Notes: a model not told the origin generated them from the sequence alone. Counted from the stretch's first letter, positions 11,448 through 32,775 are shown. The stretch is DNA of 39,413 nt from Trichoplax sp. H2 (GCA_003344405.1 NOWV01000176.1:124001-163413); one strand, 5' to 3'. Numbers and translations are program-made.

Positions 11448-14400
11448 TTATTCATGATTGTCCATTAATCGAGACGAGCCAGGTCCGCCATTTTTTGAGG
11501 AGCAGAAATTTCCTGGCTTTCCTCTCAATATAATGCCCAACAAAACGGCTACAAGTAGAGCAATAACCACCCCTTCTATAATAATTCCAATAATTAGTCC
11601 TGACTGATTGGGTTTGCTTGGATTTGTCGTGGTGCTATTATCGATGGCTAAGCGGCAATGAAAATTATTGGGATTTTTTGTGCATAAATGGTGTAGAACT
11701 GATCTGTTAATAGCGAAAAAATAAAACTTCTTTTTAGTATTAACTGTAACGCTTTAATAAACTTAGCTTATGATATTTGCATCAATCTTAAAAGAGGATA
11801 TGATTAGTGATCAAACTTGTCAAGTATTTATCCCATTAATAGATACAAATAGGGGAAATTGTAAAACTGTGATTATTTATCTATACTAACTGTGACCATA
11901 TGGACATTCGTCTAGGTTTAAATATCGAAATTAGTGGAAGTAGCACATTTAAAGTTGGCAGGAATAAACGTAAGTATGATCAAGTTATATGTCATTCCTT
12001 TCACTAATTCTAGTAAGCTATAATGTATAATTGATGCGATTCAGCAGTTCTTGTATACAATCATTGGGTCGTAATTACGCTAGACATACAAGTAGCCGAA
12101 TCACTACTATACGGATTTTACTTAAAATAATAACCAGCCCTATAAAAATTCTTTTAACTAAAAGTCGTAGGAAATTCTGTTTTACTTCGAATCTTTTACG
12201 ATTGATATTGGCGGTGTTGAAGAAAATTAGAAGCAAGCTCGTTATACTTACTTTGGATTATCTTGGCAACTCCAAGTAAAATTATGGCTTGTAAGGATGT
12301 TTTGTAGTTCCTTTATTGAACCTATACCGCATCGATCACTAAAGAAACGAAATAAATTTAATGACGATCATTTTTTTATTGTACTTGAGCAGTACAGAAA
12401 CAAAATAATCTATCCACGTTTACAAATTTATAAGTAGTGCTTAAACCACTCTATAAGAGAAAGACGAAGAAACAATATTTCAGACCGTTGTACTAACTCC
12501 TTCTAGCTAGCTCGGACATTGCTGCCCACGAATATTAGCAGACACTCTGATAGTCATATATTAGTTAATTCAGCTATAGTAGATTATTCATATAAATAAA
12601 AGCAATTCTACGACAACAGCCGATCAAATCTTAGCTGCTACGTTGTTCTTAGTGAAACCCCAAGTTATAAATAACATTTAAAATAAAAATTACTCCCGGA
12701 ATTAATATTTCTATATCACATGTTCTATCATTAATCTAAGGAATTAAGATGAACTCGAACTGAACATGGAGATCGTATCAAATCGATTCTACGTACTTGC
12801 TTAATATAAGTTATAATTCTACAATTTATACATTACATTTGATTAGGTTTACTGTTCAAGCCATGCATAACCATAATTTCCACTTTAGATACCTTCTGAG
12901 GAGATAAATTGGGTAATTCAATAGAACCAAATATGCTATATCATGTGAAATTGAATTAGTTGTGTATTAAAATTAGTCAGGAAGCTGTACCATTAAATAG
13001 CACTATTGTGCGCCAAAGTAATAATAATAAAAGGAGTACAGATTATTAATTACTAATAGAACTTAAAGAAATCTCTACAATAGGTTGGATTATCGATCCT
13101 GCTTGAACAATATCGGTTAGTAATTTTTATAATTAATAGCTTGTTTATAATCCTTCCATAATATCCTTATCGATATTTTGAAAGTTTACTACTGAGAGAA
13201 TTACTGTTGTACTACTACATTTCAAAGTTATTATAACAGTAATAAAAGTGATTTATTATTTGCAGAATTAACAAAATTTGTCCGTTAATTGAAAATTGCA
13301 TTGCAATCCAACTAAATCTTCTTATGCTAGATACCTTTGGTTATTGAAGGCAGGAGTCTTGTTATCACTCGTAAGCAAGACTCTTACAAGTCCACTTGCA
13401 CTTTTGGCAAACTGGTCATAATTAATTTAAAAATAGCGGAAAAATTTTAAATTATATTACGACAAATCTTCTCAACTGCAAGTATGAAGCATTTAAGTTG
13501 TAAAATATAATTAGAATACTGCAAGTGTAAAGATTGAATAGAATACAATTCTAATAAAAATCATAATTCAGTACAATAATAGCTAGAGATTAATCGTCTA
13601 GTGGTCATTATATTCGGCGACTCTTCATATTAAAAAAACCTCATTTCTAAATTAAAATTAACCACTAGTACGTTTAAATTATGTTCCATTCCAGAGACTA
13701 CTCAAAAGTCTACTTGTTTGATTTTAAAATTTTTCTATTCATTCATACTACATATTTATTTGTATAGAGTGTAACTGTAAGAAATACACACTTTAAGTTT
13801 ACTATTAGATTAATTAAATAGTGAATGATCTACCTCACGGGATGCTAGAGCCCAAAATGACAGCATATTCCTGTGACTACATCCCTGTGAATCATTACAG
13901 TATAGATAATTGATACCTTCGGACTGAGGAGTTGATTTAAATCGACCGCACCAGGTTAATTTATCTAGCAGAAATCTAGAGTATGAAAATATGAAGGGAA
14001 GAAATTTTAATTAATCTCCTATGATTCGGAAATATTTAGGATAGAATATAGATGATTTTCTTGAATTTCATTTACACTTGTAATTATTTATGCAAAGAAC
14101 AGTGATTTTCATACGCATTATTAATGACATCTTTTAATAACTCCTCTAAGATTATGTAATGTAATAGGTGTCTTGACTAAAGGATAGTCAATAAAATCAA
14201 GAATGATTAATCTCCAGCCAGTATAAAGATGATCTACTAACTCACATTTAATTTACTCCTAATATTTTATTATTGTCGACAAATATATTTATAAACAGAA
14301 TGCCAAATTTAGAATTAATCGATAAGCAGTTTTATCCTAGAACTTTTAGAAATGTGACGATATCAAAATTTAAGCCCATGTTGTTCTGTCAAGATAAATT

Positions 14401-16645
14401 TTATAGCGGGTATACCCTAATTATGAATGTACAATAATAGCATTTGTATTGATTAAGGTTTACTATATAATTTTTTTTCCTGTTTTATTCACCTAATGTC
14501 TTAAATTTATCATCATCTAGTTGATAATTAGGAGCACAAGCTAACGTAAAGTTTAGTGGATAGTATGGTTATTTCATCTAATATATTGATATCATTATTC
14601 GTTAGTCTACAATAAACAATAGCTACTTTAGTTAGAATTCAATTGTTAATTTTCTGTTGAACAAGACAATCCAAAAAAAACTTGTGAAAATAATCTAATT
14701 GATTTTGATGACAGTGATCTACTTACCCAGTAAAAGTTTGTGATATTACCAAAACATCATCAACAGCTTGTGCGTACGAAGAAACAAAGTCATAAACGCC
14801 AGACCAAAAAAGAGCCTAAATTATTACAGAGACATGCAATTTAAATTAAAAAAAAGAAGAAGAATTTTTCCTATTCATTTATTTTCGGTAAATGGATGAA
14901 TATATACGATACAGTAACATAATGATGATAATGTTGGCCGAGATATAAAAATGACCTTCGAAAATGTAAATCAACTTCTTTATTAAAGTCAGTGTAGTGC
15001 AACCCCAAATTAGCTTAAGATTAAAATTATGTGATTGTACGAATATAGATACGTTGAACGTTTAATGGTGCAAGTATCTACTCTTAGATGAGATTTACAA
15101 TGCGTATGGTTCCTTTATTACGTCCAGGAACATACGTATTAGGAGTTGTAGATACGAATAGATTGTTCGAAGTAAATTAGCAATATGAAGGATTCATTAT
15201 GATACTTTAATTGGAAGCGATGTTTATAGCCAATAATAATTCGCTCGATATTAAATTTAGCTTAATCTTACGACATAAATGCCAAAATATGATTGCCTTG
15301 CTAAGCATAAACTTGTAACCAATTATTTACAAATCGTCGATTTTACTATAGTAAGTAAGACAGAAGTAAATTGAAGATAGATAACTCTTGATATTGTTAG
15401 AAGAACCAAGTTTATGCTCTAATGTGAGGACTTATAATGCTAGTTCTTGTTTAATATTTTGAAAAGACTTCATCGCAGCCAGATAAGACGTAAAGGATTG
15501 TTATTTTTACATGGTGATGACTGTAAAGATTATTTTGTTTGAGAGAATATATCGTGCCGATAATCAAAATAAAGTCAAAGCCATTATTAACACCGACATT
15601 ATACCACTAATGTATTAGTACATGGAGTTAAAATAAACGTTACGAAATTAATAGATATCCTATTCGCCACCTATTAATGATTGTTACGGCGCAATCGATT
15701 GATTATCGATGTAGAGCATTGCACTTTAATACTTTTATGTCTGGCTACTTGCTGCAATTACACTATATAGATAAAAGTGAGTAGGATGCCAAGGTACGTA
15801 GCGTAAAACTCTATCTTCAAGACATGATCTCGGCAATGTGTGTTAAATTTAATCGATACGATCTAATTGAGATATTAATATTCGAATATAATGACCCCCA
15901 GATAGGTTTCAATTAAAACGGGCTATAATGCTTAACAATCAAATTAATGTGGTTTATTAAATCAGTAAATTGTGGATTCATTGCTAGAATACTATCCAGC
16001 AACGTATTTTTTTCTGGACTAAGGACCTTTAAACACATAATAAGCTGTTAAAACGACAAATTGGATTTTTATGCAGAAAGTCTAATGTAGCACGATCTCG
16101 TAAAATATTTCAGAACTAAAAGTTGCATTGATTGCTTAACTGAATGCGTCCAAATCATAGTTGGAAACTAATTAAAACTTTGCTTTTAGGAAGATAAACT
16201 TGGCTTTGTTACCGATACATTATTCATGATTCAGGTGTAGTAAATCAACGATAAATAGCATTATATATCGAACAAGTGGCTTGTATTACAGTCTAGTCGA
16301 TTTTTAACTGTAAGTTGCTGCCTTATTCTATATGCCTATTATTGCTATAGGCATGAAATAAAATAGACTTACCTTATTGGGAGGGACAGGACTGGAAGAC
16401 TCAATAAGAAATCGACTATACTGAGTAGGATCGACTTCACAAGGTTCACGGTTTACGAAAACTCGACTAAATTCTTGCCATAACGAAGGACAAGTAACGC
16501 CAGGACGCAATGTAAAATTCTGCAAAGCAATATATCCATAGCAACGTCCGATAAAAATCTCTTTAATATTGTGAGTTGTGCCTGATACAGAAGTTGTTAA
16601 GTATTGGCACCCTGCAAGAATAAGAATGTAGTAAACAAGTTTCAT
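11448..16645 (-). CDS. CD38-like: ADP-ribosyl cyclase / NAD+ glycohydrolase (CD38/BST1 family) paralogue A, 340 aa, signal peptide + catalytic domain + Ser/Thr stalk + TM + tail
   Basis: Exons 16373-16645, 14727-14815, 13834-13975, 13335-13411, 12837-12935, 12252-12338 and 11448-11703 total 1023 nt, with all introns GT-AG and phases 0,2,0,2,2,2. Family motifs: GTT..IFIGRC, LW..F, ALFWSG, LTWCG, FWALAS, FAKSASG, IFGSIELPNL (catalytic Glu), RCGIGSIKEL, WSCQDNP, LC..NP..C. Start context TCAAGATGAAA is shared with the other two paralogues. Confidence 0.93.
15682..15824 (+). mobile_element. Possible miniature solo-LTR-like insertion in intron 1 of gene A
   Basis: Begins TGTTACGG like the other LTRs here and ends ..GACA. 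It is flanked by TGAT on both sides (15678-15681, 15825-15828) and contains CTATATAG. It is short enough to be chance. Confidence 0.3.
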
Positions 16646-16786
16646 CTTGAAGTCATCCAAATTTATTGCATGCAATTTTTAGCCACAGCCCCCAAACTTC
16701 TTTCTCACTCAAAGCTAAGCCTAAAGAGAATGTAATGAAGTAAGCGCTACTTGCCAAGTTAGAAAATTGTTCCTTTGTTGACATAA

Positions 16787-16794
16787 TGACGTCA
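16787..16794. promoter_or_regulatory. Perfect palindromic CRE (TGACGTCA) about 140 bp upstream of the gene A start codon
   Basis: Exact 8-bp CREB/ATF consensus in a proximal upstream position, next to a TATA-like GATATAAG on the minus strand (about 16807-16814). Confidence 0.4.
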
Positions 16795-16964
16795 GAATTT
16801 ATCGCCTTATATCTCTTGCCCGGGGCTTTTTATGGCAAAATTACTATTTAACAGGAAAATGATGCTCCAAAGCTAGGATATCAACTATGGGGACTCTAAC
16901 GATCAATGGCTGTCTATACAACCAACTTGATTTGATGGTAATAGTGGTTAACGAATAAGGCATT

Positions 16965-17548
16965 CTTGCACTGGGACTCGAATCTAGTTGTAATTGATTA
17001 ATCAAGACCAGACTGGAGTCTATTTCCCTAGTAATATACCCTAAGCCATAAATAATTATCTGCCATGATACTTGATGTATACTATACTATAGCTTAAAAA
17101 TAGCTGAAATTGACTAACTCTACTAGCTAATAAATGAGTCAAATCTTGGCAACTTGAATCTAGGTGATATTGATTAACACGGGCTAGATTGGGATCTATC
17201 TACATATTAGTTATATTTTATGAACTCCACCAGCTAACAGAGTCAATCTTGATAATTGGTGAGACTCGAACCATGTTAGCATTGATTAATACAGATTAGA
17301 TTGAATTTCAACAACATACTATCTATTCTGATACTTGCTGTATAACCTAAAATAGCTAAAATTTACTTATTCTATGAATTAAAAGTGTAAATTTGGGTAA
17401 TGAACGAGGCTTGAGCCTAGTTGACATTGACTAATGAAGGCTAGATTGGGAGTCCATCTGCATATTATCTGCGATAATACTAATTGTATAACTAAAAATA
17501 GCCAAAATTCCCTCCTTCCGCTAGCTAAAGGAGTAAATTTGGGCAATA
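16965..17548. repeat. Diverged tandem repeat (110-175 bp units, about 4 copies) upstream of gene A
   Basis: Recurrent gactcgaatctagttg..attgattaa..gggctagattggga and aaaatagctaaaatt blocks near 16975, 17151, 17261 and 17406. Confidence 0.7.
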
Positions 17549-17619
17549 TTTGAAGTCTTACAAGGGCGTCATGTGGAATTAGATCAATGGAAAATGCACT
17601 CTTTCAAAGCGGAAGTTGC

Positions 17620-18546
17620 AAGCATATTGAATTAAAGTGTTCCGGTTACCTTCGTATCAAGATATTAAATTTTCGATACTAATGGCAATATTTTAGAGTC
17701 TGTACTCTAGAGCTAAAGTTAAAATAAACCCATTTAATCACTTCTTACGGCAATAATAGTGCAGAATTGGATGAATAACACTCCTTTCAGTAGAAGCATA
17801 CTGATTGATATCGACATTCTTATTTTTATCGCTTTCAAGTCTAATCATAGGCCTAGGACTTAAGTATACAATTGTAGAAAAGAGCAGATTTGGCCTATTT
17901 TTAGTTCTTGTTATCAAATGTAGTACTGATACAGACAAATAGCAAATTCACCAATTCTAGCAGGAAGTAAATCGGATCCACGGTATTTTAATTACCATCA
18001 ACATTACCTCGTTCATCCTTTTTGATGTTAATGATAATATTTTGGATATCAAAAATACTCTATGCAGCCGAAAGATTACTAATTGCAATTAAAGCTCTCA
18101 TTTTTACTGACTTTAATAGCAGTCAATCACCATACTTTGAAATCAAGATAGTCTATGGTGGAAAGGGTCTATTTGGCTCATGTTCAAATCTTATTGCAAG
18201 TGGTGTACTGGTTAAAATATGTACGGTCTCCAATTCAGTCTCAAGTAATCAATTGTGGATCTATTTTGGCATACCCACAAACGTTAATCATTAGCAAGAA
18301 CTACTGGTATGAAATCGAGCAAGTGTTGTAAAGAGTCCGGCAAAGTTAGAGTTGTTATGGTAAGGGTTCAGATTTTTGCATGATTGCAATTTAGTTATAA
18401 AACATTTACATATCTTCTACTATAGGTACCGTCAAAGTCTTTTTAATAAGAACAATTTAATTGTACGGTACGATACAGAATTTATGCTTTGATCTTAAAC
18501 CAGCAATCCTTTATTGTAAATCAGCTGCATTGCAATTTGTTGACAT
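17620..18546 (-). pseudogene. Decayed, apparently intronless BTB-BACK gene copy K4 between cyclase genes A and B
   Basis: From the ATG at 18546: MSTNCNAADLQ*RIAGLRSKHKFCIVP (BTB start, L..LR....FCDV). Then PDSLQHLLDFI..STIDYLRLN (18230-18340) and BACK-like EVIKWVYFNFSSRVQTL (about 17694-17744). Domain order and spacing are as expected, with stops and frameshifts. Confidence 0.65.
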
Positions 18547-18848
18547 TACAGAACATTTCCTATTGGATTGAAGGATTGATTTATTCATAGATTACGATAG
18601 TCCATAGCAAACAAATCACCGCATGGTACTATTCTTCACATTTTACTTAGTCATAAAATAGCTTATGAATACGGTATGAAAACTGTCCGTCGAGTAAGAT
18701 GATAACTCTCAGCGGTATGGCTTTAATGTTGTCGGTTTATCTCCAGAAATTTTTGAAGAAATACTGTACATAATTACCTGCTTAAATCACTGAAGCAGGC
18801 ATAATACTAGATGTGCATGAGCACGATATTACATCAATTTAACATGAC

Positions 18849-19242
18849 TGTTACAGTGGAAATGTTCCGTGATAGGACATATCGTAATCTGACTATTCTG
18901 TATTAGTCAATACATGTCTATATTCGTAAGTACTGTTGTCTGCATTAAGGGAGCAGTAGCTAAACTTAATATCTAATTCAGTAAATGATTCGGAGGTTAA
19001 TTGTATTAACTATGACTCATGAACTATTGAGGAATAGTATATAAATGCAGTATATCGTGTAATAAGAGAATTCTCCAACTTAGTGTTTAACGTAAAATAC
19101 GAGGCGTTTAAGTCTTTGTGTAGTCTGCTAGTAGGGCAAAAGTGTTTCTGATAGTGCAGATATCGTTCCTTGATACGTGGTTCAAGGAATTGACTTATTG
19201 ATCGTACATTACGTTATCTTGTTGCAAAGCTGTTTTGTGGCA
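18849..19242 (+). mobile_element. Diverged solo LTR, related to the element at 27277-27832
   Basis: Termini TGTTACAGTG...TTTGTGGCA with near-perfect 5-bp TSD ATGAC/ATGGC and internal TATATAAA. It shares tttaacgt.aa..ggcgtttaagtc and tacgtta.cttgt.gca blocks with 27277-27832. Confidence 0.7.
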
Positions 19243-19899
19243 ATGGCCAAGGCAAACAACCTATTAAAATAGGCTTGGACTAAATACTGTGACCAGATTA
19301 GTAGCAGCTATATGATAATAGCTTTAGAGTTGCTCAATTTACCTACTTTCTCTTGTTCTACATTATAATATCCACCGAAAATTCTATGGAGATTGAGCTA
19401 TAATGATCAACCTCCAATCTAAAGGATATATATTCGATTCAAATTACATTTAATTATGTAAAGAGTTACATTTCAGGATTTCTGATAATTGATTAACCAT
19501 TGAATTGTTTGGATGATTTTTAAATGGAATTCGATCGAACAGATAAAATAAATTAATGTTTTACCCTAATTTCTAAAACTAGTTACTATTCATCTCAGAG
19601 TTAACATAAATACCTAGAATTATGCAATTTTATTCCAAACTATATTGAAGTTTTGCCCGATACACTTATAATTAAGATATCCAATGCTGAAAATCATAGT
19701 TACATTCAATTTCATTCCATTTCATACGATGTTACAAGGAATATAATTAATTTTAATTATTCTACTAACTGAAATCATTAGTCAGTGTAATCTATATCAA
19801 AATAATCATAAAAATAGCCAATCTTCCATCTACAATTAGTATGATTTTACTGCATTGCGGTAATGGAAAATTTTACAAAATGTTGCTATTATAATTGAT

Positions 19900-20214
19900 A
19901 AGTAGAGGAAGCCAAATTGATTCTAAATAATCTATACAAGCATTTAGGATTATCTTATAATTTATGCTAATACCCTTGTGATAAAAAATTTAATTCTTCT
20001 GCTCACTTGCTATACCTATTTAATATTACATAATACCACTCTGATTTATTTTAAGGAATAAATCTGCCTCGTTGGGATGGCAATTTGACGAAAATAAATC
20101 ATTTTTAATACTAAACCAGATGCCATCTTTCAGTACTAAAATCATATAGTCAAGCAATTTTACGAAGTAGTAGAAAGTTTCTAGGCTTGCATAATAGGAC
20201 ATCAGTAGTAGCAA
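19900..20214 (-). pseudogene. Possible further BTB-BACK remnant K5 downstream of gene B
   Basis: FVKLLDYM and SNCHPNEADLF in ORF 20026-20214 resemble the BTB end and BACK start. The match is weak. Confidence 0.25.
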
Positions 20215-20232: not shown

Positions 20233-20257
20233 CTAGAAATCAGTTTTAGTAGCCTCC
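20233..20257 (-). CDS. Candidate terminal exon 8 of gene B (adds EATKTDF-stop)
   Basis: A strong acceptor TTTCCTATGTCTTATTTTATAG is phase-compatible with the donor AAG|GTATAC at 20685/20684 inside exon 7. Splicing would give a 316-aa protein. Confidence 0.5.
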
Positions 20258-20575
20258 CTATAAAATAAGACATAGGAAATTTAATTTTAGAAGTTTAATA
20301 CAGTTATTTTCATGTAGTATATTATTGTTATGAGTTGCATCGATTTATTCCATATTATTTAGTAATTATTAAAATTAGATAGTAATACTAAGATATATTA
20401 AAAACTATACAGTAATCATTATAAATAGAACTATTAAATATGATGACAATCAACTAAGCTTGAAAGGTATGAAATTAGAATAATTTAGTCAATATACTAG
20501 GAATAAGCGCAATGTAAAGACTTGCAACAGGTTTTTGAATATGTATTTGGGAATCTGTGCTATCAAACTCTCTCT

Positions 20576-23548
20576 TTATAAGTAACTACAAATATCTGCA
20601 ATTCTTCTAAATTTAGTCCAACACGCGTAGAAATCAATGGTAGTATTATGGTAGCTTTTATTAATCGATGATTTATAAGTATACCTTGCTTTTGTTTGAG
20701 TTTTAGACCTTGTGCGAGACATTAGAATTATAACGATAAGTAATATGAGGATAACAGCACCAGCAGCACCCAATCCGGTCAATGTCACCACTCTAAGTAC
20801 TCCATGGATGCTTTGACACTGAAAGTGAGTGGGATTTGCAGCGCAGAGGATATCTTGTACAGAGCTTTAAATATATAAATACTTCATATTACCAACAAAA
20901 GGTTATATATTAGCTACAAATTATTGCAATATAGACTATCTTAAACTGATACTAAATAAATTGAGACGGCTATTCAACTTCAGTTCATCCTATAATGTGG
21001 TACCTTGGATTATCGGAACAACTCCAGGCAAAATTTCGTTGTTGAATGAGATCTTGTAAAGTTTTGATAGAACCAGCACCGCATCGTTCACTAGGAATAA
21101 AATTGAATACAAGCAATTCTCACTAACTTGCTAGTAAAGTTCTCTTAATTGATGATTTGTAGCTAAAATATGGTACATATGTATCCAATGAACACTAATC
21201 TAATGGATAATTATAATCGATGTTAATAAACACGAGTCTCCTATTCATGTTAACAATAATATGGGTTATTACCTTTGATTTACTTTCATATCAAGATCAT
21301 GAACCATTATGATTTCGATTTTATTTACTTTACTAGGTGATAAATTAGGAAGCTCATATCTGGCAAAAAAGCTATCATTTATTTTGATCATTAGTTAACA
21401 TCGATTACATGGTAATAGTGATAATATACTTATTATCTGAAAAAAGAATGGATAGAAACTGCTATGATCAAAGGTTGAAACAACGCTATCTTTATAAAGA
21501 TAGTAACTGCAATTGCAATACTTCCAAAAGTAGAAAATACGCTGCTTACCTATAGGGAGCAAATGCTGGAATGCGGCTAGAATTGAGTAGAACTCGAACC
21601 GTTCCGCTTGAACTTTGAGCAAACTAGATATAAATATAATAATAAAAGTGAGGGCTGGAAATTTATTCTTTGCCAACATGATATGCGAATTAACAGACTT
21701 GCTGTTAATAGCAGTTTCGTAAAAATTCTTCGTGTTAAGTATGCACGTATGCTGATATCATATTAAATACATTAATTAATATACCATATTTGAACAATAA
21801 ATCATAGACACTAGATCATAGGAATAAAATATTTATAATTAGTGACTGTTAAATAATTATTGATTGATGTGTATTACTGCTTACCCAAGTCGACATTTTA
21901 GACCAAAAAATTCCGGAATTTTTGTTATTACAATGTTGAGGATCATGGCAATCATTGTAGTTGATGCCAGGCAGGGCTAGTTGCCCGCACCAACTGAGAC
22001 CATTCACTAAATATCTTGTTAAGTGGAAGATAAAATTCGATAATTAAATTTAACATGATCAACAATTAAAGCTATTTGAAGAGTATAAATTTCTTATATT
22101 AACTCGGCAATGAATATTTTCTGAGTAGCAAACAATTCATGAATATACGTCTTATAAATCAATCATTTCTTGCAGTATAGTTGATTAACCAATTAATTAT
22201 CAAGCCTAATAATTTTGATTAAGACATTTGAAAACTTCCAGAAATAAGTTAATAAGTCTTATTCATTTATCAATATTAGGCAACATTATTTAAATGACAA
22301 AATTAGAGTTTTATAGCACCTTTCTCTAAGTATCAAAAAGACTGTTTATAGATTTTCAAATCTATAATTGAAGTTAAATTTAACTGAGATATATATATGT
22401 TACGGTCAATCTCCGGAACCAGCCATTCCCTATGACTGACCGAGCAACTTCGGAAATAGCCGAATTGCTCGGTCATGTCCTAGGAATGGATTTGCCATGA
22501 TGTACTGTTCACTGTATTTAAGGGATACAGATGTTTGGATTAAGTGATTAATATTTATCGGTGTTTGCTTATTATGCTAACCAAAAAACTATAACGCAAT
22601 AGTAAGGTATGATATATTCCAATATCCTTATTGATATGTAACTATGTGCTGTGAAATCAAATTGAATCAGATGCAAATAGATTAGTAATTACGCAATAAT
22701 ATACTCAATTTATTTATTCTTATATAGATTTAATTAGATGCAAAAAACTAGATACTATTTTATAAATTAATAGAAACGTGTCGTATATCTGCTAACCCAG
22801 GAAAAGTATTTTCCAACGTTTCTAGATTTTTAACAGCTCTGATGTAGAGGTGTGCAAAGCTATAAGTTCCGGACCAAAACACAGACTATATCAGTAGAAA
22901 AGCATATTAAAAATTTTCCGTTAGTATGCTGTATTGAATAATCAGGCTAAAAGTGAGGAGAAAATTTTATTACCTATAAGTTAATATAATAGGCCGCAAA
23001 GTAATGTACTTTTGCCTAAAACTATATTTAAATCGCTCTTGCAATATATTTCAAATTATATTTTTAATTTGATTAAATTATTCTTTTAAGATATTGAGTT
23101 TAGCAATAGGAAAAAGAATTGTTAAAATATAAATAGAATTCACTCAGGTAGCAATGATGCTACGCCTATGACCACTTAAGAGATGAGACTAGCCCTCATA
23201 TTAACCTGAAGCAATTTACAAAGTGATATATTGAAAGATTGATTATTCTAGCAATATGTAATAATAAGCCTAGAATCATACCGCATCTCTAGATATAGGC
23301 ACAGAAACTTCTTTAATAAAGTTATCATATTCACTTGCATTAACGGCACAAGGTTCTTTAAATGCAAACACACGGCTGAATTGATTCCATACGTGAATAC
23401 AATCAACTTGACGTTGCAATTTATTTACAGCTTGATATTCTGAACAACGGCCAATAAAGATTTCTTGGATGCGAGCCGTTGATCCATGAGCTAAAGACCA
23501 ATCAATATAAAGTGTAATGATTACGATAATGGATGCGATCAATTTCAT
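20576..23548 (-). CDS. CD38-like: ADP-ribosyl cyclase (CD38/BST1 family) paralogue B, 344 aa (or 316 aa if spliced to 20233-20257), signal peptide + catalytic domain + TM + tail
   Basis: Exons 23282-23548, 22797-22885, 21885-22014, 21550-21623, 21273-21371, 21004-21090 and 20576-20864 total 1035 nt, GT-AG, with the same phases as A and C. Motifs: IFIGRC, SVFWSG, TLENT, LSWCG, FWSKMS, FAQSSSG, SFFARYELPNL, ERCGAGSIK, WSCSDNP. TM segment VVTLTGLGAAGAVILILLIVIILM. Confidence 0.93.
22398..22642 (+). mobile_element. Possible degraded solo-LTR-like insertion with a strong internal hairpin, in intron 2 of gene B
   Basis: Starts TGTTACGGT after an (AT)n run, has a GC-richer interior with TATTTAAG, and ends in the complementary GTAAC. 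The right boundary and TSD are uncertain. Confidence 0.4.
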
Positions 23549-25749: not shown

Positions 25750-26150
25750 CTAATCAATAAATAATGTCTTCGATTAAGTAAACAGTCTAATTGGCAGATG
25801 ATAGGTAAACGCAACCTATTATGTACAATAGCATCGATAATATTTGCGTTCTATGATAAATAAGCACCATTGAAACAGTTCTTAATCATTAAAGGGCATG
25901 AGATTGATGATGTAAGCAGATTACCTGAGGGTAAATGCCCACAGATAGAACAGCTTCGTCATTGAACTCGAAGAAAGCTACTAGGATGACTTAACAATAA
26001 TTTTTTCAAGTTATGTGACATGAAGAGCTCATTAAAGATTTTATGCAGGCTGAACTTTCTAGTGGCCTATTCCAGGAGAGAATACGACAAAATGAAGCAT
26101 TACTAATTCTTGATATGAACGAAAGATTACAAAATATATCAGGAGCTCTA
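25750..26150 (-). pseudogene. Decayed BTB remnant K6
   Basis: Fragments SRAPDIFCNLSFIS..SSACIKSLMSS, EKIIVKSS..SMTKLFYLWAF and ELFQWCLL follow BTB order, with stops. Confidence 0.4.
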
Positions 26151-27293
26151 GATATTAAGTTATACTATATTTCTGAGGAAGTACATTATGGTGCCATATA
26201 AATTTTAATTATTACCGGCCGGTACCATGATTACGTAATTTTAAATTTTTTGAAGTACAATTTTTTCCTTAAAATTATTTCTCACCTCATTGTTCTTAAG
26301 GTCATTAGTAGATATGATGCAATCGATTTGAATTAGGTCGAGGCGGTTGATGCGAAGTAATTTATGTACTGTTACGGTGTTGCCTTNNNNNNNNNNNNNN
26401 NNNNNNAGATTTTATGCAGGCTGAACTTTCTAGTGGCCTATTCCAGGAGAGAATACGACAAAATGAAGCATTACTAATTCTTGATATGAACGAAAGATTT
26501 CAAAATATATTGTAATGAAATGAAAAGTGTAGAGATCAAGCTACAAAACTTTAACAAACTTTGATTCTACTTTCGTTGCACTCCGGTCGACTTAACGCTA
26601 ATACTTTGACACCAAATAAAATTTGGGGAAATAACCGAACAACAATTTATTTCACAACAAAAATGGAGAGAAGTATAGACCGAACAACCTTACAAATACT
26701 TAGCTTTAAGTATCATTAAAATAAATGACAGACTTAAAAACTGTCAACGACCAAACAACCTTTCAAAAAGAAGAACGTTTTAACATACGACAATTCGACC
26801 CCGAAGGCCTTTTAAATTCAACATGTTCTTCAAATAAAATCTTCTTCTACTCTCTCTCTAAATTTTCTAATTGCACTATCATTTATAGGCTTCGTAGAGC
26901 CGTCTGAGGTATTAAAAACTAAACATTTGCTAACCAATTCGCACCAATCGCTCTTAAGATCCGTTTTAGAAAACTACTTTGCATCATTTAAGAAAACAAA
27001 AATCATTCAAAGTTCAGACACAATTTACCCTACGATTCCCTTACAAAACACTATAAAAGTAACAAGCTAACTATAAAAATACATCNNNNNNNNNNNNNNN
27101 NNNNNTAAATTTTAATTATTACCGGCCGGTACCATGATTACGTAATTTTAAATTTTTTGAAGTACAATTTTTTCCTTAAAATTATTTCTCACCTCATTGT
27201 TCTTAAGGTCATTAGTAGATATGATGCAATCGATTTGAATTAGGTCGAGGCGGTTGATGCGAAGTAATTTATGTACTGTTACGGTGTTGCCTT
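26036..27293. other. Assembly gaps with duplicated flanks (probable two haplotypes)
   Basis: N runs at 26387-26406 and 27086-27105. 26036-26139 recurs at 26407-26510 with one mismatch, and 26199-26386 recurs identically at 27106-27293. Confidence 0.9.
26511..27085 (-). mobile_element. Partial LTR of a retrotransposon inserted at an ATAT site in one allele
   Basis: The sequence diverges from the empty-site copy exactly at AAAATATAT|TGTAATG. The minus strand has CTATAAAT (about 26881-26888), then AATAAA (26646-26651), and ends ..TTACA. It is truncated by the gap. Confidence 0.6.
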
Positions 27294-28125
27294 GTCATTA
27301 GGATAGTTTAAAAAGTACAGTAGTAGCTAGTATGGAGAATATCCATATTTGTAGTGCTAGGTAAGATAAGTAATGCCTTAACGTGGATGTTGTTTGTGAT
27401 AGTTCAATACATATTTGATATTGATTGTTATTGTGTGATAGATAGCAAGCAGTAAGATGATTCAAGTTCTAGTTGATGATATTTGAATTGGACAACCTAC
27501 GAGCATAGATTAAGATTAAGTATGAGTAAGAGATTCAAAATATTTACCGATAGAAAAGCTACGTAAGGAACATCTCAGTTCGAGATGTTTCTCCTAGTAA
27601 GGTATAATAATAATACTGTTGTTGTTTACAAACTAGACGGTTCCTATATAAACGGGAATATTTGAGTTGAAAGGGGTGGTAAAAAGTTGTAGATGTATCT
27701 TTGCTAATAAAAGTTTTATCTTTACAGTATTTTACTGTGTGTATTTAACGTTAAGTAAAAGGGCGTTTAAGTCAGTAGCTACTTATAGACTTTTACTGTA
27801 CGTTACCTTGTCGCAGAAGTGAAATTGTGACATGTACATATCTAAATTATTCTATTGATTCTAGTCCAGACTAACATGTTATACGCCAAGTCGCTTATAC
27901 GTAATTATATGTCGTAATTGCATAACTTAGAGTTTTTATGAGGTACAACTTGACCTTAGAATTATTCATCACCGTATTTATTCTTAAGATTATTAACAAA
28001 TGTGATACAATCGATTTAAATTAGGTCGAGATGGTTAATGTGCAATAATTTACGTACATATCTAAATTACTGTAATGATTCTAGCCCAGCTAGGATATTA
28101 CATGCAAAGTACCGGTAGCATATAT
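27106..28125. repeat. Diverged tandem repeat of about 220 bp, first unit split by the solo LTR
   Basis: 27190-27276 resembles 27970-28057 (caatcgattt.aattaggtcgag). 27833-27890 resembles 28053-28110 (gtacatatctaaatta..gattctag). Confidence 0.7.
27277..27832 (+). mobile_element. Solo LTR (556 bp) with perfect 5-bp target-site duplication
   Basis: Termini TGTTAC...GTGACA with TSD TGTAC at 27272-27276 and 27833-27837. TATATAAA lies at about 27645 and AATAAA at about 27706. The neighbouring repeat unit shows the empty site (taattta.gtacatatctaaatta at about 28045-28070). Confidence 0.9.
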
Positions 28126-29079
28126 ACAATTATAGAGTAAACGCGTATCTTAGGATTACTTTTTGACTTCATAATACGATCCAGCGCAATCATCATGAAC
28201 ACTAGGAGACATGCAAATATAGTGTGCGTTTAAACTGCCTGTTATGCTGCAGATGTTAATCAGGTACTTTACTTTTAAGTTTATGAAATCATTCTGCAGC
28301 TCTCATGTTACGATGGTAGTGAATAGGTTCTATAACCCCTTCGGTTTGCAATTACGAACTCGGAAATTAGAGTTATTAGAGTTGAGCAAATTCCTAACGT
28401 GACTCAGCACTACCGCACCTCATTTACTATTGTAATTAGCTGGAACTACTACAAAGACCCATGAATATATTAGTCCTGTACATTACGGTCCTTCAATAAT
28501 TCTTTTTCTAGAATCAGAAGTTAGTCAGATGATACTTGGTAACAATACACGAATATACTTAAAGTATACCTTCACGGACACTTAACTACTGTACATAGGC
28601 TTCTGAAGTAATCTTTATGTAAATAAGAGAACTATCGTAACAAAATAATGCCTCTACCCCCAAAAATCACTACTTGCAGGTTTGCAAGTGAATTTCCTTC
28701 TATAAAGTCTAGATAATTAATATATAATTATCTAAGTGTTGAGGAGAACTAGGCGTAGCATAACTACTATTAGATAGCGTTAAAGAAATTTAGCTAAAAC
28801 AAGATTAGCTATAATGTTATTCATATTCGTGTAGATAGCTACTTACATACATCATGTCATCGAAATTATACTAATGCTGTTTATGTGTAGCTAAACTATA
28901 AGTTAGCTGGTACTTTAATTGCATTGGAGAATCATAGCTCAGTTTGAGTATAGACTTGCGATTGGAGTATTCTACTGATGACCGGGTTTGTTGGTAATCA
29001 GAGTAATATAGTAGGATAGATGCTGATAACATTACTTTGGGCAATAAACACCTTACTTTGCTCAAACCCTATTCCAAGA

Positions 29080-29640
29080 TAACTAAAATACTAGCACTTG
29101 AATTTTAGACAATAAATGAATGTTAGTAATTTATGAAGAGTTAACCTCCGATCTTATAGCAGCTTTGAGTGGATCAGGATTAATTATAACACCTATCAAT
29201 CAAGAAAGTATGCTTTTAACGTAAATTATTTATTAAGGCAAATACAATAACCATATATGCGCAGACATGCTGAAAGTAACTGGCTTTCCAAATAAAAAAG
29301 TTGCAAACTAAGGATACTACGGCTACTCCGGTGAAATATAATAACAAGATAAAGGCATCGAAATATTCTTAACTAGGCAACCCATATTATTCTGAAATGT
29401 GTATGAAACTGTAATCTACATCTATGCAGGCTTTTCACTAATGTTAACTCAAGTCGTAGTTTCTTGTATGAATACGGCAGATCATCAATCAATAGACATT
29501 GATAGATAACATCTGTAGCTATATGAGGTATGAAATAAGGTAAAACTGACAGATACATTCAGTGATCACTTATTATTAAGCACCATACATGTATATAGAG
29601 GTCTAAATAATGCAAAGATATACTTATGCTTAGAAGCTTG
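29080..29640 (-). pseudogene. Decayed BTB-BACK gene copy K7 immediately downstream of gene C
   Basis: KHKYIFALFRPLYTCMV matches the BTB motif HK.VLA..SPYF.AMF (29581-29631). It is followed by YSYRCYLSMSID, SYFQHV and BACK-like HSKLL*DRRLTLHKLLTFI (about 29115-29172). Confidence 0.55.
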
Positions 29641-29706
29641 CTATAAATTTTAAGAAATGGAAAATTGATTCCTGGATTAGCCAGTAAACGAAATAACTGA
29701 ATCCTA

Positions 29707-32700
29707 TTAAGCTTTAACGTTTTGCGCCATCTTTAAATATCTTGTTGCCCTCCCTCTTTCACACAATAGAGCAATAATAAAACCTGCTAAGATAAATATA
29801 AGCACTCCACCGGATGCTAGAGCTGCCAAAAGAACGATCCTAGAAACTCCATGAATACTTCGACATCGGATAGTATCGGGCGTGGAGGTACAGAGATGGT
29901 GATATATAGGGCTATAAATATTTGAAAGAAATTAGTAAAAGACATTAGCTATTCATTTTCACCTAAATTAGTCATAAAGTGAAACGTGTTATCGTGTAAT
30001 AGTTATCCTGGTTTCCTCTTTAGACTATCACAAACTATTCTTTTTGATAAGTAAGGTAAAAATTAAAACGAAATGTAAATATAATAATTAACCCTGGATT
30101 ATCAGCACAGGTCCAAGCGAAGTTGTACTGTTCTATCAGACTCTGCAATTCTTTTATTGAACCTGAACCACACCTCTCCCTGACGTTTTATAATAATATA
30201 TGATTAGTCAGTTTATGAGCATGAAAAGAAAAATTAGTTTTCATCCAGAACTTCCCAAAAATATAAACCAGATGTATTTCTCTTACTTTGGATTATCTTT
30301 ACCGTCGATGCCATGAACAACAATAATCTCTATTTTATTTACTTTATCATGTGGGAGATTGGGCAATTCAAATTTGGCGAAGAAGCTTCATAAACAAGAA
30401 TGTAATAGAAATGAAACTTTGATACCATTATGCGCTTAACAATCAACTAAATTCATGAAAATAGAAATTGTAAAAAAATCGCCCATAAAATATAAATTAC
30501 CTATCTGATGCGAAAGCCGGATCACGGCCTGCATTTAGTATCACTTGAACAGACCCACTGGCACTTTTAGCAAACTTATTATTGGATTAATTAATAGACA
30601 AATTAAATTAGTAATTGTCTAATACTACATTAGAAATGATTTAACAGGTGTAATCTCTGATCTTACTGCCATATAATTTCCAAGATAAAGAACCAAAATG
30701 AAATATTTTTACTAAAGTATTCTTTTAAATATATACTCGTACACCTATATATGATCTGATTAAAATCCGATCCCTGCGTACACCTATATATATATATAAT
30801 ATGGACAGTCTAAGTACGGAATGAAGGCACTTATCATCAATAGCACGGACACTAATTATAATTATCTATTAACATAACGACTAAAGGTGTTATTTTAGAT
30901 TTTAAGTTAAAGATTAAAACAGATTGTAACTATTTTTTTAATTAAATTAATGCGTATGCCGCAAACAGATGACTTAAATTTGTTATGCAGAACTTTACAA
31001 AAGAGCCGCATGTGGTTACAGTTTTACGTACAATGAAAATTAACAGAATACAACATGGAAAAATACAGTTTTGTCTAAGCTGACGTTTTATAAATGATAC
31101 GTAAGTATTATACTAAATTGCAAAACAATTACCAATCATAAAAGAAAAAAAATTATAGGTAATAACACACAAGCAAACTACTTTTATAGTTGTGAATATA
31201 TCCCTACCCAAGTCGACATTTTTGCCCAGAAATCGTATGTATTATTCTTATTACATCCTTGTGGATCTGAGCAAGTTTCATAGTTGATACCAGGAGATTT
31301 TTCTTGGCCACACCATGTTAAGCTATTGACTAAATATCTATGATTTACCAGAAAACAATGATGATTCGATTTCGTCAAGTAACAAATTTAATTGTTTGTT
31401 TCGGCGTAATTTTTAAGTATAAATTCGCCTTTAAATACGGATTTAATCAAATAAGCGTCATGATCTCATTATAATTGAAAATTTTACACGTATCGACTAA
31501 AATTTAGCTCACCAAAGAAACTAGTTGTAGCTCTTCTATATAAATGATTATGCCAGCCACTTACCCCGGTAAAACATCCTCGAGTGTATATAAATTCCCA
31601 ACAGTTTTTACGTAACTATGTGTGAAATCATATGTTCCGGACCAGAATACTGACTTTACGATTTAAAATAAAAAGGAAAAAGATCAATTATATCAGGGAA
31701 AAGATTCAAGTGTTGAATATCATAATTGTTTGCAAATACTAGAATATAGCCAATCTTATTAATAGCCCAAGAACTGCATGTTTAATAATGCACTTGGGTA
31801 AAGGTAAGATGTCAGTATTTATGTTTGCATTTATATAAGGGAAACTAAATGTCTGCACATCTCTGCTAGTCTATTACCCATACATGCATACCTATAACAT
31901 GATATAATTCCTAGATAGCTAAAAGTACGTTATTTTAGCCGATATCATTTTTCCTACTAATATTTTTACGTATCTTCTTGGATTGTATTAATAACAATGT
32001 CGATAGCTATCATTGACCTCTTCACTGTTTGATTAGCTGTATAAAATAATTAAACGCTGTTTGATTAGCTATGTCAAATACTTAACCTATCGTTCATTTA
32101 TGATTTCATCATATCGATTTTAGCGAGAGATGAAGACGATATAGTGCATATAAAAGTAATCAAAGCGCTTAGTACTAGTATTAATCGATAGCTACGATGT
32201 CTGATGAACTGTGTAAATTACTTAGACTATCATCTATTTTTGATTTTATTATTTTATCTAATTTTTTGCAAAAGGTGAGCATGATACGTAGCACACAAAA
32301 GTAATCAAGCAGTAATGTTAATTAATAGCTATTTAATGAAAAGGAATACTGAATGTATCATTCATTTTTGGTTTTATCACTTTATCTAAATTTAAGCGAA
32401 GGATAAAGACGAAGTAGCGCGTATAAAGCAATCAAGTTATTCGCTATTAAGCATTAGCTGATATGAGTATCTTACGCCATCTTGAGGAATTGGCACAGAT
32501 GATTTCTCTATGAATTTATCGTAGCCAGCCGTTTGTACTTTGCAAGGATCTAAATTAGCGAAAACGCTAGAAAATGTCATCCATAATTCATGGCAATCGA
32601 CCTCATGCTCCATAGTATGTGATGCTTGATAATCTGAACAGCGTCCAATGAAGATTTGATCAATCCTAGGTGTTGTACCAGCATCATCACTTAGTCCATA

Positions 32701-32775
32701 AAATGGATATCGATAATGGGACAGTCCAACTTGGCTATAGGCAAAAATCAAGCAGATATAGAGAAGAATTTTCAT
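29707..32775 (-). CDS. CD38-like: ADP-ribosyl cyclase (CD38/BST1 family) paralogue C, 327 aa, signal peptide + catalytic domain + TM + tail
   Basis: Exons 32476-32775, 31565-31653, 31208-31337, 30501-30574, 30287-30385, 30093-30179 and 29707-29911 total 984 nt, GT-AG. Motifs: GTT..IFIGRC, SVFWSG, TLEDV, LTWCG, FWAKMS, FAKSASG, SFFAKFELPNL, ERCGSGSIKEL, WTCADNP. TM segment IVLLAALASGGVLIFILAGFIIALLC, tail ERGRATRYLKMAQNVKA. Confidence 0.94.
32088..32436. repeat. Diverged tandem repeat, about 135-bp unit, 3 copies, intron 1 of gene C
   Basis: Units tatc.ttcattt.tg.ttt.at..gatgaagacgat..agtaatcaag near 32088, 32229 and 32357. Confidence 0.7.

What the first reader, a model, noticed from the sequence alone, without database searches (positions are those of the whole stretch)
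11448..32775. Tandem trio of CD38/BST1-family cyclases with a predicted type I transmembrane topology
Seen: all three genes encode an N-terminal signal-peptide-like stretch and a complete 10-Cys catalytic domain. A 20-26 residue hydrophobic helix follows, then basic stop-transfer residues and a 17-45 residue polar tail (A: RGKPGNFCSSKNGGPGSSRLMDNHE; C: ERGRATRYLKMAQNVKA). Known: CD38 is type II, BST1/CD157 and schistosome NACE are GPI-anchored, and the Aplysia cyclase is soluble. Inference: this is a lineage-specific expansion of receptor-like type I NAD+-consuming ecto- or luminal enzymes with cytoplasmic tails, potentially an undescribed cADPR/NAADP or NAD-depletion signalling module.
Basis: partly seen in the sequence, partly recalled or inferred. 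Interest (0 to 1): 0.85.

Follow-up and report, generated by a model that had tools for sequence, protein, structure and literature searches.

The report
Three membrane-anchored ADP-ribosyl cyclase genes, Trichoplax
Three neighbouring, expressed genes of the placozoan Trichoplax encode CD38-family NAD-converting enzymes that seem to be held in the membrane by a C-terminal helix with a short inner tail, an anchoring mode not yet tested in this family but also seen in sea anemone and slime mould relatives.

Summary
On the minus strand, 11448-32775 carries three ADP-ribosyl cyclase (Pfam PF02267) genes: A 340 aa, B 316 aa, C 327 aa. They have 7, 8 and 7 GT-AG coding exons. Gene B translates exactly to the Trichoplax sp. 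H2 protein RDD38458.1.

Each protein has a short N-terminal hydrophobic stretch starting at residue 3, ten conserved cysteines and the catalytic Glu. Each ends in a 24-26 residue hydrophobic segment, basic residues and a polar tail. Spliced RNA contigs from 4 runs of 4 studies join the helix/tail exons to the catalytic exons in all three genes.

One correction: B's expressed tail is 19 residues, not about 45, because a further small exon is spliced on.

Type I topology is the best reading (about 0.7). It rests on hand-made rules, not on SignalP, DeepTMHMM or NetGPI.

The trio is a placozoan-specific expansion (clade support 100). The architecture is not placozoan-specific. Eight of 96 other family representatives show it, including Nematostella and Physarum proteins. 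Sea urchin SpARC1 was already described with a possible C-terminal transmembrane domain.

"Receptor-like signalling module" is unsupported: the tails are short, unlike one another and match no domain family. Modest novelty; interest about 0.3.

The parts
11448..16645 (-). Gene A, ADP-ribosyl cyclase paralogue, 340 aa. Exons 16645-16373, 14815-14727, 13975-13834, 13411-13335, 12935-12837, 12338-12252, 11703-11448 (stop included).
   Evidence: Model built by hand with GT-AG at every intron. Five of its six joints are listed in RNA contigs: four in 4 of 4 runs, and 12338|12837 in 2 of 4 plus 2 with a one-letter shift. PF02267 matched exons 1 and 3.
16580..16645 (-). Gene A N-terminal signal-peptide-like stretch (about residues 1-22; cleavage site not predicted by a program).
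   Evidence: The hydrophobic run covers residues 3-13. The alignment to the mature Aplysia cyclase chain starts just after it.
11526..11600 (-). Gene A C-terminal hydrophobic helix, residues 291-315, with one Glu inside it. A Ser/Thr/Asn/Pro-rich stalk with two N-glycosylation sequons precedes it.
   Evidence: Coordinates worked out by hand from the exon end.
11451..11525 (-). Gene A polar tail, residues 316-340, beginning with Arg-Gly-Lys.
   Evidence: RNA contigs run unbroken over 11400-11703 in 4 of 4 runs.
20233..23548 (-). Gene B, 316 aa, identical to P0002 (RDD38458.1, Trichoplax sp. H2). Exons 23548-23282, 22885-22797, 22014-21885, 21623-21550, 21371-21273, 21090-21004, 20864-20685, 20257-20233.
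   Evidence: Exact spliced mapping of P0002. Six of seven joints are listed in 4 of 4 RNA runs. One contig of run X9 spans 23625 to 19831 through the listed exons.
23483..23548 (-). Gene B signal-peptide-like stretch (about residues 1-22).
   Evidence: Hydrophobic run at residues 3-15. AlphaFold helix 2-15.
20720..20791 (-). Gene B C-terminal hydrophobic helix, residues 274-297. It starts about 9 residues after the last conserved Cys.
   Evidence: AlphaFold gives one continuous helix over 263-313.
20685..20719 (-). Gene B tail, first part (residues 298-309), rich in Arg and Lys.
20236..20257 (-). Gene B tail, last seven residues, on a separate 25-base exon.
   Evidence: Joint 20685|20257 in 4 of 4 RNA runs. 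The same tail stands in the T. adhaerens orthologue P0001.
29707..32775 (-). Gene C, 327 aa. Exons 32775-32476, 31653-31565, 31337-31208, 30574-30501, 30385-30287, 30179-30093, 29911-29707.
   Evidence: Model. The four joints inside the laid stretch are each in 4 of 4 RNA runs. Loose ends at 31338 in 2 runs read on into exon 2. The T. adhaerens model P0003 stops in the intron after exon 6 and lacks the last exon.
32719..32775 (-). Gene C signal-peptide-like stretch (about residues 1-19).
   Evidence: Hydrophobic run at residues 3-18.
29761..29838 (-). Gene C C-terminal hydrophobic helix, residues 285-310.
29710..29760 (-). Gene C polar tail, residues 311-327. It holds a Tyr-x-x-hydrophobic motif about 8 residues after the helix.
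   Evidence: RNA contigs run unbroken from 29911 to at least 29624 in 4 of 4 runs, that is through the stop codon.

Best explanation
The region holds three old tandem paralogues of the ADP-ribosyl cyclase / NAD glycohydrolase family of Trichoplax sp. H2. All three are transcribed and spliced.

Inferred route: each protein enters the endoplasmic reticulum through a cleavable N-terminal signal peptide. The ten-cysteine catalytic domain folds in the lumen. The protein is then held in the membrane by a single C-terminal helix that acts as a stop-transfer sequence. Arg/Lys and a 17-25 residue tail stay on the cytosolic side, which makes this a type I protein. The catalytic domain therefore faces the outside of the cell or the lumen of an organelle, as it does in CD38, BST1 and SpARC1. 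Only the anchor differs.

Inferred chemistry: the conserved catalytic Glu and the two Trp cleave nicotinamide from NAD+. The product is cyclic ADP-ribose or ADP-ribose, or NAADP by base exchange at acid pH.
- B and C keep the Aplysia-type Glu-98, Asn-107 and Phe-174 equivalents, so they are likely cyclase-leaning.
- A has Ser, Asp and Ile at these three places, so its product mix probably differs.

The paralogues differ most in stalk, glycosylation sites and tail. This suggests that they are sorted to different membranes.

Shown here: genes, splicing, family, fold of B, active-site residues, hydrophobic segments and tails, the placozoan clade.
Inferred: signal-peptide cleavage, type I insertion, orientation, enzyme products, sorting.
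For: Family and fold:
- PF02267 matched 6 of 9 exon ORFs.
- P0002 versus PDB sequences: 41 distinct chains, best the Aplysia cyclase at E 2.2e-56.
- AlphaFold model of B: pLDDT 90.7. Foldseek top hit 3zwm_B, E 6.3e-28, TM-score 0.89 on the target.

Active site:
- Catalytic Glu (Aplysia 179 / CD38 226) is invariant in alignment A1 (E193) and kept in A, B and C.
- Both Trp are kept.
- Residue roles come from PMC2785692 (passages).

Secretory route:
- Ten aligned Cys.
- N-glycosylation sequons: 8 in A, 4 in B, 1 in C.
- N-terminal hydrophobic runs start at residue 3 with no preceding tail.

Anchor:
- Hydrophobic segments of 24-26 residues, mean hydropathy 2.8-3.5 over the scored stretch, followed by basic residues and tails of 17-25.
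- In the same family, 47 of 100 rows have GPI-signal-like ends with tails of only 0-7.

Transcripts:
- The 15 joints listed are present in all 4 runs, except one of gene A in 2 of 4 plus 2 with a one-letter shift.
- The last exons are covered through their stop codons.
- The helix lies on the same exon as the last two conserved Cys, so it cannot be skipped alone.

Expansion: A, B, C and P0001 form a clade with SH-aLRT 100.
Against: - No dedicated predictor (SignalP, DeepTMHMM, NetGPI) could be run. The topology call rests on my own hydropathy and charge rules.
- Gene A's helix holds a Glu.
- SpARC1, the one studied relative with a signal peptide and a hydrophobic C-terminus, behaved as a soluble luminal protein (PMC1949048, passages).
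- All four RNA data sets are assembled contigs. Rare isoforms that lack or change the last exon would not show.
- The tree is a 'quick' one with 44 of 97 inner branches unresolved.
- No enzyme activity is known for any placozoan member.
Confidence: 0.7

Rival explanations
1. The C-terminal hydrophobic segments are unusual GPI-attachment signals. They would be cut off in the endoplasmic reticulum, leaving BST1/CD157-like GPI-anchored ectoenzymes.
For: GPI-signal-like ends are the commonest C-terminal class in the family, 47 of 100 rows. Gene A has a Ser/Asn/Gly-rich stalk just before the hydrophobic run that could hold an attachment site.
Against: The hydrophobic runs are followed by 17-25 polar, charged residues. 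The 47 GPI-like relatives have 0-7. In B and C the run starts about 8-9 residues after the last domain Cys, which leaves hardly any room for an attachment site plus spacer. The runs are 24-26 long against a median of 15 in the GPI-like set. NetGPI and big-PI were not run.
Confidence: 0.1
2. The proteins are in effect soluble luminal enzymes, as reported for sea urchin SpARC1. The hydrophobic C-terminus would serve only for retention in an organelle, or would be clipped off.
For: SpARC1 has a signal peptide, no predicted GPI site and the most hydrophobic C-terminus of the three sea urchin enzymes. It still behaved as a soluble protein of the endoplasmic reticulum lumen and was not secreted (PMC1949048, passages).
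Against: I did not see SpARC1's C-terminal sequence, so I cannot tell whether it has a polar tail like the ones here. Its hydropathy figure and prediction table are supplements that I could not open. Segments of 24-26 residues with mean hydropathy near 3 and flanking basic residues are typical stable membrane spans.
Confidence: 0.12
3. One reading: the three are receptor-like molecules whose cytoplasmic tails pass a signal into the cell, forming a new NAD-linked signalling module.
For: Tails exist, are transcribed, and B's tail is identical in the two Trichoplax lineages. C's tail has a Tyr-x-x-hydrophobic motif. B's tail ends in a Ser/Thr-x-hydrophobic triplet.
Against: The tails are 17-25 residues, do not align among the paralogues and match no Pfam family above a cut-off. 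The two motifs are short and are better known as sorting or scaffold-binding signals than as signalling domains. No partner gene was seen in the window: 10 flanking or intergenic ORFs gave no Pfam match above a cut-off.
Confidence: 0.06

Closest known systems
Aplysia californica ADP-ribosyl cyclase (PDB 1lbe, 3zwm)
   Same: Best sequence match (E 2.2e-56) and best fold match (TM-score 0.89). Ten cysteines. The catalytic Glu-179, Glu-98, Asn-107, Trp-77, Trp-140 and Phe-174 equivalents are all kept in B and C.
   Different: The Aplysia enzyme has no membrane anchor: the crystallised chains end a few residues after the last Cys. The placozoan proteins continue into a hydrophobic helix and tail. 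Gene A has Ser, Asp and Ile at the 98, 107 and 174 positions.
Human CD38 (type II membrane ADP-ribosyl cyclase / NAD glycohydrolase)
   Same: Same family and fold (E about 1e-41; Foldseek E about 1e-25). A single-pass membrane protein whose catalytic domain faces outward or into a lumen.
   Different: CD38 is anchored by an uncleaved N-terminal signal anchor behind a cytoplasmic N-tail (PMC1949048). Here the N-terminal hydrophobic run starts at residue 3 and the anchor is C-terminal.
BST1/CD157 and Schistosoma NACE (GPI-anchored members)
   Same: Signal peptide, catalytic domain and C-terminal hydrophobic segment. BST1 matches at E 9.2e-47.
   Different: Their hydrophobic segment is a GPI signal at the very end of the precursor (anchoring as stated in PMC1949048). 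The placozoan segments are longer and are followed by 17-25 polar residues.
Sea urchin SpARC1 (Churamani et al. 2007, PMC1949048)
   Same: [quoted passage not shown] The catalytic domain is luminal.
   Different: SpARC1 was found to behave as a soluble protein of the endoplasmic reticulum lumen. Whether it has a polar tail after the hydrophobic stretch I could not check.
Nematostella vectensis XP_048588917.1 (P0021) and other uncharacterised type-I-like members (P0042, P0044, P0075, P0109, P0113, P0122 of Physarum, P0140)
   Same: Same predicted layout: N-terminal hydrophobic leader (P0075 lacks its N-terminus), catalytic domain, a 20-26 residue hydrophobic segment, basic residues, and a tail of 8-50 residues.
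   Different: They sit in other clades: a cnidarian clade (support 98) and a clade with Physarum. They are 25-35% identical to B. None is studied, as far as my searches show.

Membership tests
ADP-ribosyl cyclase / CD38 family (Pfam PF02267) | Match to the family profile above the curated cut-off | tested here: met
   Exon ORFs of all three genes score 37.6-62.7 bits against a cut-off of 25. PF02267 is precomputed for P0001 and P0003.
ADP-ribosyl cyclase / CD38 family (Pfam PF02267) | Family fold | tested here: met
   Tested for gene B only. AlphaFold pLDDT 90.7. Foldseek found the Aplysia cyclase, BST1 and CD38 at E 1e-24 to 6e-28, with TM-scores of 0.85-0.90 on the target.
ADP-ribosyl cyclase / CD38 family (Pfam PF02267) | Catalytic Glu (Aplysia Glu-179 / CD38 Glu-226) and the two active-site Trp | tested here: met
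   Present in A, B and C. The Glu is invariant in 50 of 50 aligned members. Roles come from PMC2785692.
ADP-ribosyl cyclase / CD38 family (Pfam PF02267) | Second active-site acid (Aplysia Glu-98 / CD38 Glu-146) | tested here: met
   Met in B and C. Not met in A, which has Ser there. In CD38, mutating this residue shifts the enzyme towards cyclase activity (PMC2785692), so A is a divergent member rather than a non-member.
ADP-ribosyl cyclase / CD38 family (Pfam PF02267) | Ten conserved cysteines (five disulfides) | tested here: met
   Ten aligned Cys columns in A, B and C. Eight of them are invariant or nearly so in alignment A1. The disulfide bonds themselves were not checked.
ADP-ribosyl cyclase / CD38 family (Pfam PF02267) | NAD cyclase, glycohydrolase or base-exchange activity | not testable with these tools
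   Needs recombinant protein and NGD, etheno-NAD or NADP plus nicotinic acid assays.
Type I single-pass membrane protein | Cleavable N-terminal signal peptide | tested here: inconclusive
   Hydrophobic runs of 11-16 residues start at residue 3 and are followed by small residues. Homology to the mature Aplysia chain begins right after them. No signal-peptide predictor was available.
Type I single-pass membrane protein | One membrane-spanning helix near the C-terminus, followed by a cytosolic tail with basic residues | tested here: met
   Segments of 24-26 residues, then Arg or Lys within the first three tail residues, then tails of 17-25. A continuous helix in the model of B. Judged by hydropathy rules only.
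Type I single-pass membrane protein | Experimentally shown N-out / C-in orientation | not testable with these tools
   Needs epitope tagging, protease protection and glycosylation mapping.
GPI-anchored ADP-ribosyl cyclases (BST1/CD157-like) | Hydrophobic signal at the extreme C-terminus of the precursor | tested here: not met
   Tails of 17-25 polar residues follow the hydrophobic run. The 47 GPI-signal-like relatives have tails of 0-7.
GPI-anchored ADP-ribosyl cyclases (BST1/CD157-like) | Attachment site of small residues plus a spacer before the hydrophobic run | tested here: inconclusive
   B and C have only about 8-9 residues between the last Cys and the run. A has a stalk that could hold a site. 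No GPI predictor was available.
Type II members (CD38-like) | N-terminal cytoplasmic tail followed by an uncleaved signal anchor | tested here: not met
   There is no N-terminal tail: the hydrophobic run begins at residue 3 in all three. By the same rule, 8 of 100 family rows do have a run that starts after residue 15.

The most novel reading that the evidence does not exclude
A C-terminal transmembrane anchor with a cytosolic tail may be an old and recurrent third membrane form of ADP-ribosyl cyclases. It is present in Placozoa, Cnidaria and even Amoebozoa.

In Trichoplax the three paralogues may have divided the work by tail-encoded sorting:
- C, through its Tyr-x-x-hydrophobic motif, would go to acidic endo-lysosomal organelles and make NAADP there.
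- B, through its Ser/Thr-x-hydrophobic end, would go to a scaffolded patch of the cell surface.
- A, with its glycosylated stalk and altered active site, would have a different product.

That would give a nerve-less animal compartment-specific NAD-derived calcium messengers.
Probability: 0.15. Interest if true: 0.5.

Novelty: new variant of a known kind. Interest (0 to 1): 0.3.

Why it matters
[quoted passage not shown] Their catalytic sites face away from the cytosol, which is the long-discussed "topology paradox".

The studied anchoring modes are type II (CD38), GPI (BST1 and the schistosome enzyme) and none (Aplysia). A type I form does not solve the paradox, because the domain still faces outward. 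It would however add a cytosolic handle through which the cell could sort or regulate the enzyme.

The form appears in early-branching animals and in an amoebozoan, and the C-terminal class changes at least 8 times on a tree of 100 members. This suggests that the anchor is an easily exchanged part of the family.

For Trichoplax it yields three concrete, expressed candidates for NAD-based calcium signalling. It also gives two annotation corrections:
- The T. adhaerens model of gene C lacks its last exon.
- Gene A has no counterpart among the best 150 database representatives.

Tried and rejected
Searches that gave little or nothing:
- No whole genome is held for the window. I could not count family members elsewhere in the genome.
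- The third word-index protein search, with a 50-sequence alignment, returned only 4 proteins and added no names.
- Earlier notes of this scan: none for this genome.
- Rfam at gathering thresholds: 0 matches in the window.
- Pfam on 10 flanking or intergenic ORFs: nothing above a curated cut-off.
- The zebrafish ARC1-like paper (PMC6675606) is not held.

Literature searches for a described placozoan or type I member:
- 'Trichoplax' + 'ADP-ribosyl cyclase': 2 papers, passages read, neither treats these genes.
- 'ADP-ribosyl cyclase' / 'type I transmembrane' / 'invertebrate'.
- 'ADP-ribosyl cyclase' + 'Nematostella': 8 papers, listing only.
- 'CD38' + 'placozoa': 2 papers, listing only.
- 'ADP-ribosyl cyclase' + 'C-terminal transmembrane': 3 papers, listing only.
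None describes such a member. Most subscription papers are not in the library, for example the reviews on the evolution of the family that I recall.

Corrections to my own work:
- I first took another Glu for the catalytic one (note 1). The alignment to the Aplysia chain corrected this (note 3).
The coordinates given were worked out by hand from exon ends and residue numbers.

Limits of what was examined:
- Parts of the stretch without RNA contig cover, such as the introns and 15402-16068, say nothing either way.
- Depth was not used to rank the genes.
- Of the 20 coding differences between the window and the RNA contigs that I translated, 14 change the residue and 6 do not. None lies in a tail codon. 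Only 40 of 122 differences were listed, so no selection argument is made.
- Two of the 14 rows classed as 'helix plus tail' (P0016, P0054) were judged doubtful and are not counted among the 8 convincing ones.

Full report
**What the window is.** The window is AT-rich, with G+C of 0.28-0.34 in 2-kb steps, and has split genes. The first exon of the middle gene retrieved a 309-aa Trichoplax adhaerens protein at 100% identity over the part aligned (P0001, XP_002108469.1, 'expressed hypothetical protein'). Its cluster mate is P0002 (RDD38458.1, Trichoplax sp. H2, named 'ADP-ribosyl cyclase/cyclic ADP-ribose hydrolase', 316 aa). P0002 maps to the window letter for letter through eight exons with GT donors and AG acceptors at all seven introns. 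The window is therefore Trichoplax sp. H2 or an identical sequence. No whole genome is held for it.

**Checking the observation.** Pfam PF02267 matched 6 of the 9 exon ORFs I submitted. The three first exons scored 54.9-62.7 bits and the three middle exons 37.6-47.4 bits, against a cut-off of 25. The three last-exon ORFs gave only sub-threshold matches to assorted membrane-segment families. tblastn with the Trichoplax proteins found three loci and no fourth in the window.

I built models for the other two genes by hand.
- Gene A: 16645-11448, 7 exons, 340 aa.
- Gene C: 32775-29707, 7 exons, 327 aa.
- Every intron is GT-AG.
- Exon lengths nearly match across the three genes: 89, 130 or 142, 74 or 77, 99 and 87 bases for exons 2-6.

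The three proteins align throughout the domain with ten shared cysteines. Identities are A-B 44.7%, A-C 43-45% and B-C 55-58%. The genes share no DNA-level similarity in a self-comparison of the window. The duplications are therefore old.

**Are the helix and tail exons real?** I laid the contigs of four runs from four studies on 11400-31399. One run is on record as RNA and three are guessed to be RNA. The contigs carry intron-less joints with GT..AG ends on the minus strand, so they derive from spliced RNA.
- Gene A: five of six joints are listed. Four are in 4 of 4 runs. 12338|12837 is in 2 of 4, plus 2 with a one-letter shift.
- Gene B: six of seven joints are listed, all in 4 of 4 runs. 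They include 20685|20257, which adds a 25-base last exon.
- Gene C: the four joints within the laid stretch are all in 4 of 4 runs.
- Ten further joints were not shown by the tool.
- Loose ends at 22886 (1 run) and 31338 (2 runs) read on into the neighbouring exons of B and C.
- The last exons of A (11400-11703) and C (29911 down to 29624 or beyond) are covered without a break through their stop codons in 4 of 4 runs.

The '45-residue' tail of B is a read-through artefact; the expressed tail has 19 residues and is the same in P0001 and P0002. The hydrophobic segment lies on the same exon as the last two conserved cysteines, so it cannot be dropped by skipping an exon of its own. Contigs cannot exclude rare isoforms.

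**What the proteins are.**
- P0002 matches 41 distinct PDB sequences. The best are the Aplysia ADP-ribosyl cyclase (E 2.2e-56), BST1 (9.2e-47) and CD38 (about 1e-41).
- An AlphaFold model made with a 50-sequence alignment has mean pLDDT 90.7. It superposes on the Aplysia cyclase, BST1 and CD38 at Foldseek E 1e-24 to 6e-28, with TM-scores of 0.85-0.90 on the target.

Counting along the Aplysia chain reproduces the published residue numbers. The catalytic Glu-179 (CD38 Glu-226), Trp-77 and Trp-140 are kept in all three genes. The Glu is invariant in 50 of 50 aligned members.

At three further positions the paralogues differ:

| Aplysia position | CD38 equivalent | B and C | A |
|---|---|---|---|
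| Glu-98 | Glu-146 | Glu | Ser |
| Asn-107 | Asp-155 | Asn | Asp |
| Phe-174 | Thr-221 | Phe | Ile |

According to Liu et al. 2009 (PMC2785692, passages read), Phe-174 favours cyclisation, and mutating Glu-146 turns CD38 into a cyclase-like enzyme. I therefore infer that B and C lean towards cyclase activity and that A differs in its product mix. No activity has been measured.

**Topology.** No signal-peptide, membrane or GPI predictor was available, so I used hydropathy and charge rules of my own.
- N-termini: hydrophobic runs of 11-16 residues start at residue 3 with no preceding tail. Homology to the mature Aplysia chain starts just behind them. This fits a cleaved signal peptide, not a CD38-type signal anchor.
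- Secretory route: the domains carry ten cysteines and 8, 4 and 1 N-glycosylation sequons in A, B and C.
- C-termini: hydrophobic segments of 25 (A, with one Glu inside), 24 (B) and 26 (C) residues. Arg or Lys follows within three residues, then tails of 25, 19 and 17 residues.
- In the model of B, residues 263-313 form one helix.
- In B and C the segment starts about 8-9 residues after the last cysteine. A has a stalk of roughly 25 residues, rich in Ser, Thr, Asn and Pro, with two sequons.

For comparison I classed 100 near-full-length family rows: 97 of the best 150 representatives of a search that found 518 relatives at E ≤ 0.001, plus the three window genes.

| C-terminal class | Rows | Detail |
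|---|---|---|
| Hydrophobic run at the very end | 47 | tail 0-7, median run 15; the GPI-signal look |
| No C-terminal hydrophobic run | 39 | |
| Hydrophobic run plus tail of 8 or more | 14 | see below |

The placozoan proteins fall clearly in the last class. I put type I at about 0.7, an atypical GPI signal at about 0.1, and an in effect soluble luminal form as in SpARC1 at about 0.12.

**Is it special to placozoans?** The expansion is; the architecture is not. In a quick maximum-likelihood tree of the 100 rows, A, B, C and P0001 form a clade with SH-aLRT 100. 44 of the 97 inner branches are unresolved.

The 14 'helix plus tail' rows break down as follows:
- 4 placozoan rows.
- 8 convincing others: P0021, P0042, P0044, P0075, P0109, P0113, P0122, P0140.
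- 2 doubtful: P0016, P0054.

P0021 is Nematostella vectensis XP_048588917.1. It lies in a clade (support 98) whose named members are all cnidarians: Sanderia, Actinia, Desmophyllum, Hydractinia and Hydra. P0122 is from Physarum polycephalum. The rest come from unnamed transcript-sized contigs. The state 'helix plus tail' needs at least 8 changes on the tree. The anchor type is therefore labile, or some database C-termini are wrong.

In print, Churamani et al. [quoted passage not shown] They nevertheless found it to behave as a soluble luminal protein. Its hydropathy figure and prediction table are supplements that I could not open. My five literature searches found no paper on placozoan or type I members. 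The library lacks most subscription journals.

**The tails.** They do not align with one another and match no Pfam family above a cut-off. C's tail holds a Tyr-x-x-hydrophobic motif about eight residues after the helix, the spacing typical of endo-lysosomal sorting signals (established knowledge, not tested here). B's tail ends in a Ser/Thr-x-hydrophobic triplet, the form of class I PDZ ligands. A's tail has a Cys near the membrane. These are leads for sorting, not evidence for a receptor function.

**Verdict.** The genes are ordinary, already annotated members of a well-known enzyme family, and they form a placozoan-specific tandem expansion. Their likely type I anchoring is a variant that has not been tested experimentally in the family. 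It is shared with cnidarian and amoebozoan sequences and was foreshadowed by SpARC1. It leaves the catalytic domain on the same side of the membrane as in CD38. Interest is modest (0.3).

Noticed in passing
window 26036-26139 / 26407-26510 and 26199-26386 / 27106-27293: Two near-exact duplications (99% and 100%). The second copy of each starts right after a 20-N run (26387-26406, 27086-27105). They look like unmerged contig ends at scaffold gaps rather than biology.
   Followed up: partly
window 18737-19403 and 26074-28074: These are by far the most heavily covered bins in all four RNA contig sets. Loose ends recur at 18857 (4 of 4 runs) and 19238 (2 of 4), and at 27085, 27277 and 27832. ORFs there match no Pfam family and there is no Rfam match. 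They may be exons of unannotated transcripts or copies of a dispersed repeat.
   Followed up: partly
window 29707-30179 (gene C, exons 6-7): The T. adhaerens database model of gene C (P0003, TRIADDRAFT_19184, 276 aa) reads on into the intron after exon 6. It lacks the exon with the last two cysteines, the helix and the tail. RNA contigs support the spliced form given here.
   Followed up: yes
window 11448-16645 (gene A): Gene A has no counterpart among the best 150 representatives. Its best non-placozoan hit is P0024 at 36%, and nothing beyond its window paralogues and their database copies comes close. It may be missing from the public protein sets, although all four RNA contig sets hold it.
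   Followed up: partly
window 35883-37548: Several overlapping direct repeats at 75-78% identity, in units of roughly 330-360 bases. This is a degenerate tandem array of unknown nature.
   Followed up: no
window 6526-6635 / 6699-6802: A 110-base direct repeat at 85% identity.
   Followed up: no
P0005 (534 aa) and P0114 (535 aa), database relatives: Two family representatives show two matched stretches each, which suggests tandem double-domain cyclases. P0005 also has an N-terminal signal-anchor-like run at residues 15-33.
   Followed up: no
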